Part shown: positions 3,831-62,990 of the stretch, piece after piece
Position numbering within the stretch: position 1 is the stretch's first letter
How the letters are laid out: each line of letters begins with the position of its first letter
Assembly: GCA_964016885.1 (NCBI GenBank)
Contig: OZ024740.1
Span: 170,810,001-170,874,000 of the forward strand
Source: Eledone cirrhosa
Lineage: Eukaryota
Reading direction: 5' to 3'
DNA: 64,000 nt
Program-made: the position numbers and the translations under genes
Notes under the pieces: model-generated
Told to the model about the DNA's origin: nothing
The model's input: only the letters and a program-made list of their open reading frames with translations
Databases searched by the model: none

Positions 3831-4267
3831 TAGTAAACATTGATTTGCTGTCTTCACTGGTTTGTATATAGATAGTAGCTAATACCAGCTATAACACAGA
3901 ATTATTTGATATTTTTACCTCCAAAAATCCTAGAAGGCCCCAGATAATTTATAGGCATAAATATTTTTTCAGAATTGAATTCTAGTTAAAATTATACTTT
4001 AAAATTATTTATTATTATTACAGATATAATATATTTTATGTAATATATATATATATATATATATATATATATATATATATGTGGGGGGGGTGGGGTGTAT
4101 GTGTGTGTGTGTATGTGTGTGTGTGTATGTGTGTGTGTGTGCGTGTGTGTATAGTATATTTGGCAATATACCGTATGTCTAATTAAAAACATTTAGAAGA
4201 CAACATGCTATCGGTTTTAAAGTAGAGACTATGTCACTTACTTCTTTTCGGCGAAAGAAGGGAGAGA

Positions 4268-4309
4268 AGCTGACAGTCTGTTTCACGCTAGTTGGCGATC
4301 ATCAGAGCC
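4268..4309 (-). ncRNA. Type I hammerhead ribozyme motif
   Basis: ggcu-CUGAUGA-u cgc caacua gcg u-GAAA-cagacug-UC-agcu; GUC cleavage triplet, stems I-III pair. Confidence 0.75.
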
Positions 4310-4513
4310 ACGCACCTCCTTCTTCCGCCGAAAATTATAGAAGCTGGATTCTTATAGAATTCCAGTAATAATCAGGAGCTGATTATACAGAGCGATTGCC
4401 GGTCCAGCAAAAATTAGGTATTAGGATTGGTGCTCTGAAATAGCGATGTATTCATGAATGTATGTATAGTATATTTGGCAATATACTATTTTCGGCGGAA
4501 GAAGCGGGTGCGT

Positions 4514-4555
4514 GGCTCTGGTGATGGCCAACCAGTGTGAAACAGACTGTCAGCT
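4514..4555 (+). ncRNA. Hammerhead motif with mutated core (CUGGUGA), probably inactive
   Basis: Inverted-arm copy of 4268-4309 with A6>G and broken stem II. Confidence 0.55.
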
Positions 4556-4716
4556 TCTCTCCCTTATTTCGCCGAAAAGTAGTAAGTGACAGAGTCACTA
4601 CTTTAAAACTGATAGCGTATGGTCTTTTAAATGTTTTTAATTAAACATACGGTATATTGCCAAATATACTATATATACATTCATGTATACATCGCTATTT
4701 CCGAGCACCAATCCTA

Positions 4717-4958
4717 ATATATATATATATATATACATATATATATATATATATATATATATATATATATATATATATATATATATATATATATAAATAT
4801 ATATATATATATATATATATATATATATATATATATATATATATATATATATATAATATATATATAATATATATATATATATATATATATATATATATAT
4901 ATATATATATATATATATATATATATATATATATATATATATATATATATATATATAT
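4717..4958. repeat. (TA)n microsatellite, representative of dozens of long TA tracts in the window
   Basis: Direct reading. Confidence 0.98.
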
Positions 4959-58260: not shown

Positions 58261-58994
58261 CTTGGGAATGCGACGACTTTGTTCAATTCGATTTGTCCTT
58301 TTGTAGACATTGACAATTTTACATAAGGCTGGGTGCCGTGTTTGAGAATAATCATATAACTGTTTCGGAGAAAGATAAAAAAAAGCTAGATGACCTGCTT
58401 GGTGAAGCTTAAATAGATGAACATATATGTCATTAACAGCGACCACAATCCATATAAACACAACCAAACATGTTATGGGATAACTGCTAATTTAGGCAGA
58501 GAAACCTCGTGGGACACGAATGCAAAAAATATGTGAAAGCATACTGATTTATTAAATATATATATATATATATATATATATATATATATATATATATATA
58601 TATATATATATATATCAAAATACGTTGCAACCGAAGGAAGACAGGAGTGCCTTGATTGAGTACTAACCTGTATATTAAAAACTCCGTGGATTGCCCATAT
58701 TGGGTTGATTTATCTTACTTGATATCACAACTAATATTACTGAATATTAGAGGCACAGATTCCAAGAGACTACGTCGAGCACAAACCCGCAAGTCCCCTT
58801 ATACATTTTGATACAATAAAACATAACTGCCTAGATAAGGAAATAGAAAGTAGAAATTGAACGTGCGGTGCAAACATTTGTCTGTTAGAATCAGTGATGT
58901 CACAGTGATATCACAGATAGTTATATGACAAATGGTGACGTCAGAAATGGTTGTTACAAGTAACGATGGCAATATGAAAGAAATAATACACAGA

Positions 58995-59737
58995 AATAAA
59001 AAATAATAAATGTATTTCGAATACATTCACCAATATATATATATATATATATATATATATATATATATATATATATATATATATATATATATATATATAT
59101 ATGTGTGTGTGTGTGTATAGACGTTAAGGGTCGAACCACTCGCTTCTGATATCTATATGTATATATATATATATAAATATATATATATATATATATATAT
59201 ATATATATATATATATATATATATATATATATATATATATATATATATATATATATATATATATATATATATATATATATGTATATATATATATATATAT
59301 ATATATATATATATATATATATATATATATATATATATATATATATATATATATATATATATATATTTATACATACATATATATATATATATATATATAT
59401 ACATATATATATATATATATATATATATATATATATATATATATATATATGTATATATATATATATATATATATATGTATGTATAAATATATATATATAT
59501 ATATATATATATATATATATATATATATATATATATATATATATATATATATATATATATATATATATATATATATATTCATATATTTATATATATATAT
59601 ATATACATATAGATATCAGAAGCGAGTGGTTCGACCCTTAACGTCTATACATATATATATATATATATATATATATATATATATATATATATATATATTG
59701 GTGAATGTATTCGAAATACATTTATTATTTTTTATTT
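58995..59737. repeat. ~740 bp palindrome centred on a long (TA)n tract
   Basis: Two unique blocks (ATGTATTTCGAATACATTCACCAAT; ATAGACGTTAAGGGTCGAACCACTCGCTTCTGATATCTAT) mirrored exactly on both sides. Confidence 0.92.
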
Positions 59738-59845
59738 ATGTATAGTTTAAACCCTAAACAGTGAAGGTCAGTAATTTATTACCACCTTATTACCAGTAAG
59801 ATAAATAGCTCAATGTAATAACATCAGTTGTTCTACAGAGCAGTT

Positions 59846-60400
59846 ATATAGAATTCACAAGAATCAAAGCTATGTTCAAAGCATTTATTCACTTACAATT
59901 ATTTCATCCAAAGAGTGTTCGGAGCATTTTTCAATGTTTGTACACATAATTGACCTCCCTTCCAACGCAAGAGACATACAGATACATATATATATATATA
60001 TATATTGATGTACAGTGGAGTGGCATATATTATACTATACTATTTTTGTACAGCAATTCAAATTCAAAATCAAAATCAAAATTAAAATTAAAATTAAAAT
60101 ACATTCGGCAGATAACACAGATAATGCAAGAGGATAGTTTGATAGTCAGGTCTAGTAGGTAGTGTATGCGTTAGTTACACGTAGAGAATGCAAGTGTCTC
60201 TCATTTTTGTACTATTATTGTGTGGCAGGGTGTTACACGTAATGCAAGCACTTTAAGCACTTTAAGCGGGTAAGCAAGGGAGGTCAATTATGTGTACAAA
60301 CATTGAAAAATGCTCCGAAGACTTCAAGCTAAGGTTTGGATGAAACAATTGTAAGTGAATAAATGCTTTGAACATAGCTTTGATTCTTGTGAATTCTATA
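59846..60400. mobile_element. Element with ~115 bp inverted termini and HHR variant
   Basis: 59846-59962 reverse-complementary to 60276-60400; left arm has lost stem II. Confidence 0.85.
60312..60356 (+). ncRNA. Hammerhead motif with U4C core change
   Basis: gcu-CCGAAGA-c uucaagc uaag guuugga u-GAAA-caauug-UA-agu then AAUAAA. Confidence 0.6.
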
Positions 60401-61402
60401 TATATATATATGTGTGTGTGTGTGTAAATACATATACTCTTTTACTCTTTACCTGTTCCAGCCATTCGGCTGAGGCGATGGTGGGGCACCGCCCTTGCGT
60501 ATATGTATTTATATATATATATATATATATATATATATATATATATATATATATATATATATATATATATATATATATATATATATATGTGCGTGCGTGT
60601 GTGTGTGTGTGTGTGTGTGTGTGTGTGTGTGTGTGCGCACGATTAAAATAATGTTTAAATGATTGTATATCCACAAAGTTTCTTTTTAAAAAATTATATA
60701 ATTTTATATGCAGTATTTATGTGTATCTCTAGGAAATGTTTACCAATTCGTTACTGTTCACAATAGTCCGACAGAATCCACCCTTCACGGAAATTATGTA
60801 ATATTAGGACACATTACGTAATTCGGCTTGAAATTGCTTCCTCGGCAGGCTTCTCATCAAAGAAGAGGTAAATCAGACCTGTCCGTTTCTAGGGAAAACG
60901 AAGGCGATAATTTAAAATTGAAAATTTGAATATAGTGACATCATAAATTCCTATAAAAAGAGCGTTAAAGATAAGTCTCCTTTTTTTATTAACATAAACG
61001 TCATCGTTTGGTCACATAAATATATCTATCATAATGGAACTTCAGCAAGGTTTCCGTTAATTACATGTGACTGAAATATATATACACACACACACACACA
61101 CACACACACACACACACACACACACACACACACACACATATATATATATATATATATATATATATATATATATATATATATATATATATATATATATATA
61201 TGTATGTATATATGTATGTATATATATATGTATATATATATATATATATATATATGTATATATGTATATATATATGTATATATGTATATATATATGTATA
61301 TATGTATATGTATATATATATATATATTTCTAGGGCGGGTAAAATTCCCGAGATCCTATATATATATATATATATATATATATATATATATATATATATA
61401 TA

Positions 61403-62990
61403 GTGTTATACTTTGGGAGGGTCATGCTGCCAATAAAAACACGCGCACCTGTTTGTTTTCACTTCAATTTATTATAGAATTCCGGTTGGTTGGTTGCTCG
61501 GTTGGTTCGATAACCGGAAGGTTGTTTGTATATTGTCAAAGCTCTTTCGTAACATAATCTGTGACCTCCTCGGTGACGAGGTTTTTATTTTTAGTTCTTT
61601 CCTTTGTTCTGTCCTATACCGTCTTGTTTTTGCGTGTTGTGTGCTTAGTTTGCGCATGCTTTACATCCGGGTGTGTGTGTGATTTTATTTATATATGTGT
61701 TTATTTACTTGTCACTAGTTGGTTGGTTGTTCTATCTGTGTGTGTCTGATTTGTTTTGTTAGTTTGGTTTAGTTTGTTAGTTTGTGTGTGACTGTATGTC
61801 TTCATTTTGTCCTTAATTACTAGCTGTGATGTTGCTATTCCACTCATGTTTTCTGTTTAATTTTGGTTGGATTTCTTTTATGTTTGTCGCCTTTGTGATT
61901 TGTCTGTGTGTGGATATAATTTTTATCTCTATGTTCTCTAATGTGCCCCTATGCTCTATTTTGGTATGTTGGTGGAATAGGAATAAGGCAAATAAAATAA
62001 ACTCATTTTATGATAAATATCAGAGTGTAATGTTCGTCAACATAACTCCTAGAAGCGAACTAGCTTACAGATTTAGAAGGGCCCTAGACAAATTAAATAT
62101 TAATATAGTTGAAAGACCAGGTATTCCCATAAAAATCCTAATTAAAAAAACATATCCATTTCAAAGATCTCCCTGTGCTGATAGGAAATGCAGAATGTGC
62201 AAGCTAAGTCCGCAATCTAACTGCAAAACCAGGAACATAGTATATAGCATAAGATATACTGAGGGACAGTGTAGGAATAAGAATATAACATACATAGGTG
62301 AAACAGCCCGTAGCATAAGAGAAATGATAAGTGAACACTGGCGAGAACTCCAGGATGGGAAAAACTCAGCAGTTCTTCACCAACATACCAAAATAGAGCA
62401 TAGGGGCACATTAGAGAACATAGAGATAACAATTATATCCACACACAGAAAAGATGCAATGCTCAGACAAATCACAGAGGCGACAAACATAAACGAACTC
62501 CAACCAAAATTAAACAGAAGACATGAGTGGAATAGTAACATCACAACTAGTAATTAAGGATAAAATGAAGACATACAGTCACACAAAAACAAAACTAACA
62601 AAACAAATCAGACACACACAGATAGAACAAACAACCAACTAGTGACAAGTAAATAAACAAATAAATAAATACATAAGAACACACATGATGTAACGCATGC
62701 GCAATCTAAGCACAAAACACACAACACACAAAAACAGGATGATGTAGGACAGGACAAAGGAGAGACCCAAAAATATAAAAACCTAGTCACTGAGGAGGCC
62801 ACAGAGTGTGTTACAGAAGAGTTTTGACAATATATAAACATCCTTCCGGAAATTTATTATAAATTGAAATGAAAATTAACAGGTGCGTGAGTTTTTATTG
62901 GCAGCATGACCCTCCCAAAGTATAACAATATCTGTTTCAACAAACGTTTTCAGATAAGGAATCATGCAAAACAAATTCAAAAATGAAGTA
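61403..62990 (+). mobile_element. Penelope-like element family P1 with 5' inverted arm
   Basis: 61403-61974 is an inverted copy of ~62378-62927; sense GIY-YIG fragment between; degenerate HHR cores at ~61544-61586 and ~62786-62828. Confidence 0.92.
61973..62557 (+). pseudogene. PLE GIY-YIG endonuclease domain (open frame, RT missing)
   Basis: NIVYSIRY...YIGETARSIREMISEH...RQITEATNI...PKLN; close paralog of 41501-42130. Confidence 0.9.

What the first reader, a model, noticed from the sequence alone, without database searches (positions are those of the whole stretch)
4149..62990. Fold-back architecture anchored in (TA)n tracts recurs about 15 times
Seen: inverted arms at 4149-4720, 7207-7638, 7821-7892, 17616-17738, 17987-18257, 20147-20572, 23424/25530, 25545-26414, 38574-38983, 39140-39366, 43890-43973, 51448-51758, 53021-53596, 59846-60400 and 61403-62927; most end directly in (TA)n and most carry HHR cores. 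Known: PLE insertions often have a 5' inverted partial pseudo-LTR. Inference: a shared integration route in which GIY-YIG cuts AT repeats and both ends are primed, giving MITE-mimicking retro-palindromes. If transcribed, these form long dsRNA, a candidate substrate for ADAR editing or siRNA production.
Basis: partly seen in the sequence, partly recalled or inferred. Interest (0 to 1): 0.75.

Follow-up and report, generated by a model that had tools for sequence, protein, structure and literature searches.

The report
Head-to-head Penelope ends in TA repeats
Most of these mirror-image repeats are the cut-down ends of Penelope-like jumping genes joined head to head inside TA repeats, a known layout; one arm nearly always carries an extra tail that the other lacks, which likely means that both cut DNA strands start copying the RNA, each from its own fixed start point.

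Summary
The inverted arms are real: 13 of 15 are recovered by masked self-BLAST, one pair is only 25 bp and one is weak. 13 of 15 touch (TA)n at one end and none at both. Only 7 of 15 carry a credible hammerhead. They are ends of at least 11 repeat families; 8 sites link firmly and 3 weakly to GIY-YIG (with or without RT) Penelope-like ORFs. Each well-sampled family has two fixed ends, 36-170 nt apart. In 159 of 169 typed inverted insertions one arm ends short and the other carries the tail (23 of 24 in unbiased sequence). Either arm can be the longer, joints vary and mostly overlap by 1-6 nt, so these are not MITE TIRs. Dual priming from two RT start sites fits best. The window is typical: 20 inverted repeats per 100 kb in an 800-kb sample, 59 of 159 TA-anchored against 3 expected. 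The layout, the tail and the (TA)n preference (including Octopus) are published, and this scan found the same thing repeatedly on other pieces of this genome. Editing and siRNA could not be tested.

The parts
4149..4716 (.). Family B fold-back: left arm 4151-4335, right arm 4488-4674, 42-nt tail 4675-4716, then (TA)n; extra inverted tail piece 4422-4486; hammerhead on - strand 4305-4272
   Evidence: ORF link in one locus only
7039..7636 (.). Family C palindrome 7209-7636 (94% arms) plus about 168-nt tail on the left (about 7039-7208); hammerhead-like cores at 7477 (+) and 7367 (-) with ACAATTGT stem III
   Evidence: GIY-YIG ORF ends about 790 nt upstream in L293, L294, L306
7821..7892 (.). Weak 72-nt palindrome beside (TA)n; unassigned
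   Evidence: 75% self match, no other copy in 1.99 Mb held; not searched genome-wide
17523..17742 (.). Family D stub palindrome 17612-17742 with about 90-nt tail 17523-17611; tip just inside a TT^AGT wall; no true hammerhead core
   Evidence: GIY-YIG ORF about 1.0 kb upstream in L143, L181, L381
17892..18256 (.). Family E: tail about 17892-17987, long arm 17988-18204 (hammerhead core on - strand at 18083), short arm 18207-18256
   Evidence: GIY-YIG remnants about 1.6 kb upstream in two loci, with short TA runs between
20148..20327 (.). Family F stub fold-back 20148-20247 plus 80-nt tail, TA on both sides; no hammerhead
   Evidence: RT + GIY-YIG remnants between inverted F ends in L385, L386, L388
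20450..20780 (-). Second, separate family F insertion, tail to tail with the first across (TA)n
23338..25530 (+). Family G 5'-truncated PLE: inverted tail about 23338-23423 and 25-nt arm at the left, GIY-YIG ORF 23770-24246, hammerhead 25433-25484, short end at 25530
25545..27017 (.). Family H: two tandem units about 615 nt apart (25910-26411, 26525-27017) ending in (TA)n, with a 73-77% inverted arm of a sister subfamily at 25545-25728; no hammerhead, no clean ORF link
37441..37688 (.).
38573..39090 (.). Family I palindrome 38573-38984 (81%) plus about 108-nt tail; the family hammerhead lies about 380 nt inside the short end, outside these arms (present in the solo copy, 40825-40897)
39144..39397 (.). 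Family J fold-back 39144-39361 plus 36-nt tail; no hammerhead within 450 nt of the end
   Evidence: GIY-YIG ORF (Pfam PF01541, 29.9 bits) upstream in L381, L384, L302
41117..42151 (-). Solo family A copy (short end at TA, hammerhead 41307-41273, GIY-YIG ORF 41501-42151), no inverted partner
43889..44095 (.). Family K 87-nt palindrome plus about 120-nt tail ending in (TA)n; half hammerhead core only
   Evidence: GIY-YIG remnant upstream in one locus (L159)
51448..51759 (.). Old repeat with 52-nt inverted arms (569 genome candidates, 72-85% alike); unassigned
53024..53652 (.). Family A near-perfect 569-nt palindrome plus about 60-nt tail 53593-53652; hammerhead in each arm (53391 +, 53225 -)
   Evidence: RT + GIY-YIG ORF in 4,046-nt tandem units on C4
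59699..60400 (.). Family M: tail about 59699-59846, arms 59847-60400, hammerhead 60315-60353 (+)
   Evidence: Hydra-like RT + GIY-YIG ORF upstream in L292, L387
61404..62987 (.). Older family A insertion: short-ended arm 61404-61974, tailed arm 61978-62987 with GIY-YIG ORF part (to 62557), tail 62928-62987

Best explanation
These are 5'-truncated ends of several endonuclease-bearing Penelope-like retrotransposons set head to head in (TA)n, one arm stopping at an inner fixed end and the other carrying a tail, likely because the GIY-YIG protein nicks both strands of the TA tract and each nick primes reverse transcription from one of two fixed start sites. Shown: family identity, two fixed ends per family, the one-short-one-tailed rule, variable arm lengths and joints, TA anchoring. 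Inferred: the two cDNAs run inward until they fall off or reach the RNA 5' end, anneal through 1-6 nt of microhomology and are filled in. The commonest stubs (families F, D, J) likely stop at the transcription start. Use of one RNA by a protein dimer is inferred, not shown. Read-through RNA would fold into a long hairpin that sequesters the hammerheads, but transcription and editing are untested.
For: Families A, C, D, F, G, J and M continue inward into GIY-YIG (with or without RT) ORFs in the sense direction (Pfam GIY-YIG above cut-off for J's ORF, below cut-off for A, G). Tails of fixed length per family: J 36, B 42, A 60, F 80, G 88, D 90, E 92, I about 108, M about 155, C 168 nt. 159 of 169 fully typed inverted pairs are short+tail (6 tail+tail, 4 short+short; 15 more had one untyped end; 6 of 190 were dropped for an inner TA tract); 69 of 75 incidental and 23 of 24 in the evenly spaced sample. 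Where arms differ by more than 30 nt, the short-ended arm is longer in 23 and the tailed arm in 15 of 132 resolved pairs (24 of 156 unresolved); a snap-back of a short-primed cDNA cannot supply a tail. Non-D joints: 60 of 107 overlap by 1-6 nt, 14 flush, 24 with inserts, 9 overlap by more than 6 nt. Family-independent check: of 73 TA-anchored inverted repeats in 800 kb, 4 have TA at both ends and 57 have it 13-200 nt from the other end (null 17.5%). Inner ends pile up to a wall at the A of TT^AGT (F -58, D -72) or TC^AGA (J about -193). In vitro, an Anolis PLE cuts AT-rich DNA, extends both strands and starts at two sites that bracket the tail (PMC11167929).
Against: PMC11167929 saw no difference in start site between the two strands, which by itself predicts mixed end types, not 94% short+tail. 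A hairpin intermediate trimmed by the endonuclease at the inner site would give the same end pattern. Arms of one insertion are closer than the family median in 38 of 47 cases but as close as the nearest other copy in only 11 of 47, so a single RNA template is not shown. Families H, I and Q have no clean ORF link, B and K have one locus each, E two with TA runs between; sites 7821 and 51448 are unassigned. F and D samples are biased by palindromic queries. The extra G expected from a cap is ambiguous (14 of 36 F copies that stop at the wall, many explained by the other arm). TSDs cannot be read inside (TA)n and no empty site was available.
Confidence: 0.62

Rival explanations
1. Same PLE families, but the second arm is made by self-priming (snap-back) of one cDNA or of an antisense template, and the endonuclease then trims one arm at the inner site.
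For: Proposed for rotifer PLEs from palindromes at inverted joints (PMC3846280); the tail has been ascribed to EN-mediated resolution (PMC8557442). It explains the one-tail rule directly. Many joints are spacer-less, and 94 of 132 resolved pairs have arms within 30 nt of each other.
Against: In 23 resolved pairs the short-ended arm is more than 30 nt longer than the tailed arm, and in L385 and L386 it holds the ORF, so trimming would have to hit either the template arm or the copied arm. Solo copies end at the short site with no partner (41117). Both sites are RT starts in vitro.
Confidence: 0.25
2. The short ones (D, F, K) are true non-autonomous units or MITEs that spread as whole palindromes.
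For: D recurs at about 131 nt, K at about 84 nt, and one F joint recurs 9 times exactly.
Against: One-sided tails; D and F lead to GIY-YIG ORFs; 41 different F joint strings among 51 copies, and D tips in 9 forms among 19 with both strand origins; recurrence is inflated by the queries. K was not examined in context beyond 4 arms.
Confidence: 0.08
3. The palindromes form after insertion, by break repair or cruciform resolution at fragile (TA)n next to a solo PLE end, or are assembly artefacts.
Against: The tailed arm holds sequence absent from the short arm, ends are fixed per family to a few bases, and arms diverge from each other by up to about 30%.
Confidence: 0.05

Closest known systems
EN+ Penelope-like element insertion unit with inverted 5'-truncated copy and one-sided tail (Craig et al. 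2021, PMC8557442 Fig. 2; Arkhipova et al. 2013, PMC3846280)
   Same: Inverted truncated copy head to head, tail at one end, hammerhead in the terminal repeat, partial tandems, GIY-YIG + RT ORF, palindromic joints.
   Different: Tails here are 36-170 nt (30-40 nt in print); the one-tail rule is counted here (159 of 169); most insertions are ORF-less stubs of about 100-600 nt.
Hydra-1_Obim and Naiad_Obim/Naiad_Ovul of Octopus (PMC8557442 supplement)
   Same: (TA)n insertion preference is listed for all three; families M and F share RT and EN motifs with Hydra-1_Obim by eye (KFIQFDI, FD.MG.DSA, YRDD, C.CR..CP); C, D and G share the EN motifs.
   Different: Six short end motifs of families A, F, H and I were not found in that supplement; no alignment or tree against it was run; no N-terminal-EN (Naiad) ORF was linked to any family here.
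Poseidon of Anolis carolinensis (Frangieh et al. 2024, PMC11167929)
   Same: Two fixed ends that bracket a tail, AT-rich targets, both strands cut and extended.
   Different: There the sites are close together and used alike by both strands in vitro; here genomic pairs are 94% one of each.
MITEs / palindromic Harbinger of Xenopus (PMC5625713)
   Same: Short, abundant, self-folding insertions.
   Different: Asymmetric ends, variable joints, retroelement ORFs, no transposase link seen.

Membership tests
EN+ Penelope-like elements | ORF with RT and GIY-YIG endonuclease upstream of the terminal repeat | tested here: met
   A, F, M with RT + EN; C, D, G, J with EN and adjoining sequence. Weak for B, E, K; not found for H, I, Q.
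EN+ Penelope-like elements | pLTR in tandem or inverted arrangement | tested here: met
   4,046-nt tandem of A; M end-ORF-end in L292; inverted ends around ORFs in L385, L386, L387, L381.
EN+ Penelope-like elements | Optional tail at one end | tested here: met
   36-170 nt, 159 of 169 pairs one-sided.
EN+ Penelope-like elements | Hammerhead motif in the terminal repeat | tested here: inconclusive
   Conserved core at a fixed place in A, B, C, E, G, I, M; none within 450 nt in F, H, J, Q; D's is a joint product. Cleavage not testable.
EN+ Penelope-like elements | Clade placement (Hydra, Neptune, Poseidon, Nematis) by RT tree | not tested
   Only motif resemblance by eye to Hydra-1_Obim; the Neptune-like label for J rests on the CxxC motif described in PMC8557442.
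MITE / DNA transposon | Symmetric fixed-length TIRs | tested here: not met
   Arms 36 to more than 1,000 nt, one-sided tails, elements 62-4,000 nt.
MITE / DNA transposon | Uniform target-site duplication | not testable with these tools
   Both flanks are (TA)n; no empty alleles.
MITE / DNA transposon | Related autonomous transposase | tested here: inconclusive
   Long copies lead to PLE ORFs in seven families; no dedicated transposase search was run.
Non-LTR retrozymes (non-autonomous PLE tandems) | ORF-less tandem units with a hammerhead | tested here: inconclusive
   I has about 690-nt tandems with a hammerhead and no ORF link; H (615 nt) and Q (430-530 nt) have tandems without a core.

The most novel reading that the evidence does not exclude
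PLE integration is obligately asymmetric: one RNP dimer copies a single RNA twice, from the inner start on one strand and the tail start on the other, often running to the RNA 5' end. In this octopod-like genome that has left roughly a quarter of a million self-folding inserts that supply about a third of all near-perfect local dsRNA potential (over half outside simple repeats), making PLE stubs the missing explanation for cephalopod hyper-editing.
Probability: 0.3. Interest if true: 0.65.

Novelty: new member of a known kind. Interest (0 to 1): 0.33.

Why it matters
How PLEs build their inverted ends is still called undefined in print (PMC8557442). A 94% one-short-one-tailed rule across many unrelated families, with either arm longer, is a sharp constraint that the existing in vitro system could test. 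Octopus has the highest hyper-editing and local dsRNA potential in a 19-species survey, and its repeats were left out of that paper's annotation (PMC5625713); the lizard Penelope is heavily edited there. These fold-backs are a concrete candidate. For annotation, they will be misfiled as MITEs or miRNA hairpins.

Tried and rejected
Rfam scan: 303 matches at E<=1; none of the 150 listed reached its gathering score, they were mostly miRNA models on hairpins and microsatellites; no hammerhead family among the rows shown, 153 rows not shown. The repeat finder was swamped by (TA)n. First attempt to orient spacers failed because references held both orientations; redone with single real copies. A>G excess on the sense strand as a trace of edited templates: seen in A (11.9 against 5.1 per 1,000), reversed in J and F, flat in C, M and D; confounded by subfamily variants, so rejected as evidence. 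Cap-G test ambiguous. Isolated hammerhead folds have weak z-scores (0.3 to -2.1), so hammerhead calls rest on conserved core position. Pfam misses most PLE ORFs. Families J-inner, L, K and E were searched genome-wide but came without flanks. MITE origin and post-insertion repair were considered and ranked low.
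Full report
Setting. The window is G000 C1 170,810,001-170,874,000 of a 3.0-Gb genome. It is AT- and microsatellite-rich. The best named relative of one element's protein is an Octopus vulgaris protein at 66% identity, so an octopod host is likely; this is inferred.

Observation. After masking simple repeats, self-BLAST finds local inverted pairs at 13 of the 15 named sites. The 23424/25530 pair is a 25-bp arm and 7821-7892 is a weak 75% match. One more palindrome lies at 37441-37688. 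13 of 15 sites have one end within 5 nt of (TA)4 and none has TA at both named ends. In the window 9 of 16 inverted repeats end within 5 nt of (TA)5 (0.2 expected by random placement). In 80 evenly spaced 10-kb stretches 59 of 159 do (3.0 expected); direct repeats show it too, 25 of 141 against 1.9. Density is 25 per 100 kb in the window and 20 in the sample, so the window is ordinary. Taking 73 TA-anchored cases in 800 kb gives about 270,000 genome-wide, a rough extrapolation. A stem-checked hammerhead scan gave 11 hits against 0.25 in shuffles. With the relaxed scan, 7 of the 15 sites have a credible core; the core at 17676 is created by the joint. The core pattern itself is recalled.

What they are. 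Genome searches with arms from twelve families each returned about 500-3,000 first-look candidates, 40 scored; these are lower bounds. Families G and Q and site 7821 were not searched this way. In the 1.99 Mb of loci held, each well-sampled family shows two fixed outer ends that meet (TA)n: an inner 'short' end, and a 'tailed' end 36-170 nt further out. For H the tail runs into the next tandem unit; K, L and Q are thinly or poorly typed. Long copies lead inward, in the sense direction, to PLE ORFs: A (RT and C-terminal GIY-YIG, tandem units of 4,046 nt), M and F (Hydra-like RT and EN by eye), C, D, G and J. B and K have one supporting locus each and E two; H, I and Q have none and occur as short tandems; 7821 and 51448 are unassigned. 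So 8 of the 15 sites are firmly PLE, 3 probably, 2 share the layout without an ORF link, and 2 are open.

Rule of the ends. I paired facing ends of one family within 6 kb: 190 pairs, 6 dropped for an inner TA tract, 15 with one untyped end. Of the 169 left, 159 are one short plus one tailed, 6 tail+tail, 4 short+short. Outside the targeted hits it is 69 of 75, and in the evenly spaced sample 23 of 24. A few pairs in overlapping or duplicated loci may be counted twice in the full set. Without any family library, 57 of 73 TA-anchored inverted repeats have TA 13-200 nt beyond the other arm and 4 have TA at both ends (null 17.5% for the former). Of 156 mixed pairs with a reference, 132 were resolved: arms within 30 nt of each other in 94, the short-ended arm longer in 23, the tailed arm longer in 15. 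Joints mostly overlap by 1-6 nt (60 of 107 outside D). F shows 41 joint strings in 51 stubs and D tips come from both strands, which argues for repeated formation rather than one MITE lineage. Prompted by earlier notes of this scan, I checked inner ends: they pile up to a wall at an initiator-like TT^AGT in F and D and TC^AGA in J (the initiator likeness is recalled). That fits run-off at the RNA 5' end; the cap-G signal was ambiguous.

Mechanism. Best reading: the endonuclease nicks both strands of (TA)n, each 3' end primes cDNA from one of two start sites, and the two cDNAs join by microhomology. The in vitro work on Anolis Poseidon shows AT-rich cutting, extension of both strands and two starts that bracket the tail (PMC11167929, parts 1-2 of 4 read). 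It does not explain why pairs are nearly always one of each. Copying one RNA twice would (PLE RT lacking RNase H is recalled), and so would snap-back plus trimming (PMC3846280 passages; PMC8557442 passages). Arm-to-arm distances do not decide: closer than the family median in 38 of 47, as close as the nearest other copy in 11 of 47.

dsRNA. The 53021-53652 RNA folds into one 286-bp stem (-517.6 kcal/mol, z -57), which would sequester both hammerheads. With a measure modelled on PMC5625713 (passages), 348 of 6,000 random 50-mers have a near-perfect inverted match within 2 kb: 156 in simple repeats, 109 in the family library or other TA-ended inverted repeats, 63 in other inverted repeats, 20 elsewhere. 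My 5.8% is not comparable with their 0.44% for O. bimaculoides (other assembly, other code). Whether any of this is transcribed or edited was not testable here.

Known or new. The inverted truncated copy, the one-sided 30-40-nt tail and (TA)n targeting are described (PMC8557442), and its supplement lists (TA)n for Octopus Naiad and Hydra families (searched, not read whole). Four searches found no paper that ties octopus editing to PLE fold-backs or states twin priming for PLE ends, judged from listings and passages of PMC5625713 and PMC9989829; subscription papers and bioRxiv supplements are not covered. The retrozyme preprint (10.64898/2026.07.22.740005) was seen as two passages. All eight earlier notes returned reach the same identification on other pieces of this genome; they are unchecked AI notes and not independent support.

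Verdict. A real, genome-wide and strongly non-random feature, explained by known PLE biology. The added value is the counted one-tail rule, tails up to 170 nt, and a testable link to cephalopod dsRNA. Interest 0.33.

Noticed in passing
window 13608-13733 and 53881-53922: Solo family F stubs with (TA)n on both sides, no inverted arm.
   Followed up: partly
window 13871-13933, 14790-14860, 37015-37053, 37823-37853: Four more hammerhead motifs, three of them close to (TA)n, probably ends of further PLE families; the first recurs at 54037-54099 and in many loci.
   Followed up: no
window 17862-17911: Perfect 50-nt palindrome centred on a TA run: two family E tail ends facing each other.
   Followed up: no
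window 28815-29786 and 52060-53025 (- strand): Two 78% alike 3' ends of a non-LTR element with zf-RVT, each ending in (GATA)n; the second abuts the 53024 palindrome's TA tract.
   Followed up: no
window 44444-45285: RT remnant (RVT_1, 40.6 bits) of another LINE-like element.
   Followed up: no
G000 C4 94.67-94.78 Mb (L009, L010, L023-L026, L291): Tandem array of family A, period 4,046 nt, more than 99% identical; one unit has an open frame of at least 1,169 aa with an Asn-rich insert, recalling the N-rich inserts of rotifer PLEs (PMC3846280). Possibly a source locus.
   Followed up: partly
L292 and L295: Near-identical nested clusters of E, C, A and F ends at two places on C1 about 470 kb apart; a segmental duplication, so not independent.
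   Followed up: no
L381:711-1339: A 35-nt piece of the family D end amplified into a tandem minisatellite.
   Followed up: no
window 139-537, 10723-10849, 15992-16130, 29824-30287: A further dispersed repeat family of about 140 nt in both orientations, SINE-like by size; not examined.
   Followed up: no
many loci: Different PLE families often sit back to back on the two sides of one TA tract, so TA tracts act as serial landing pads.
   Followed up: partly
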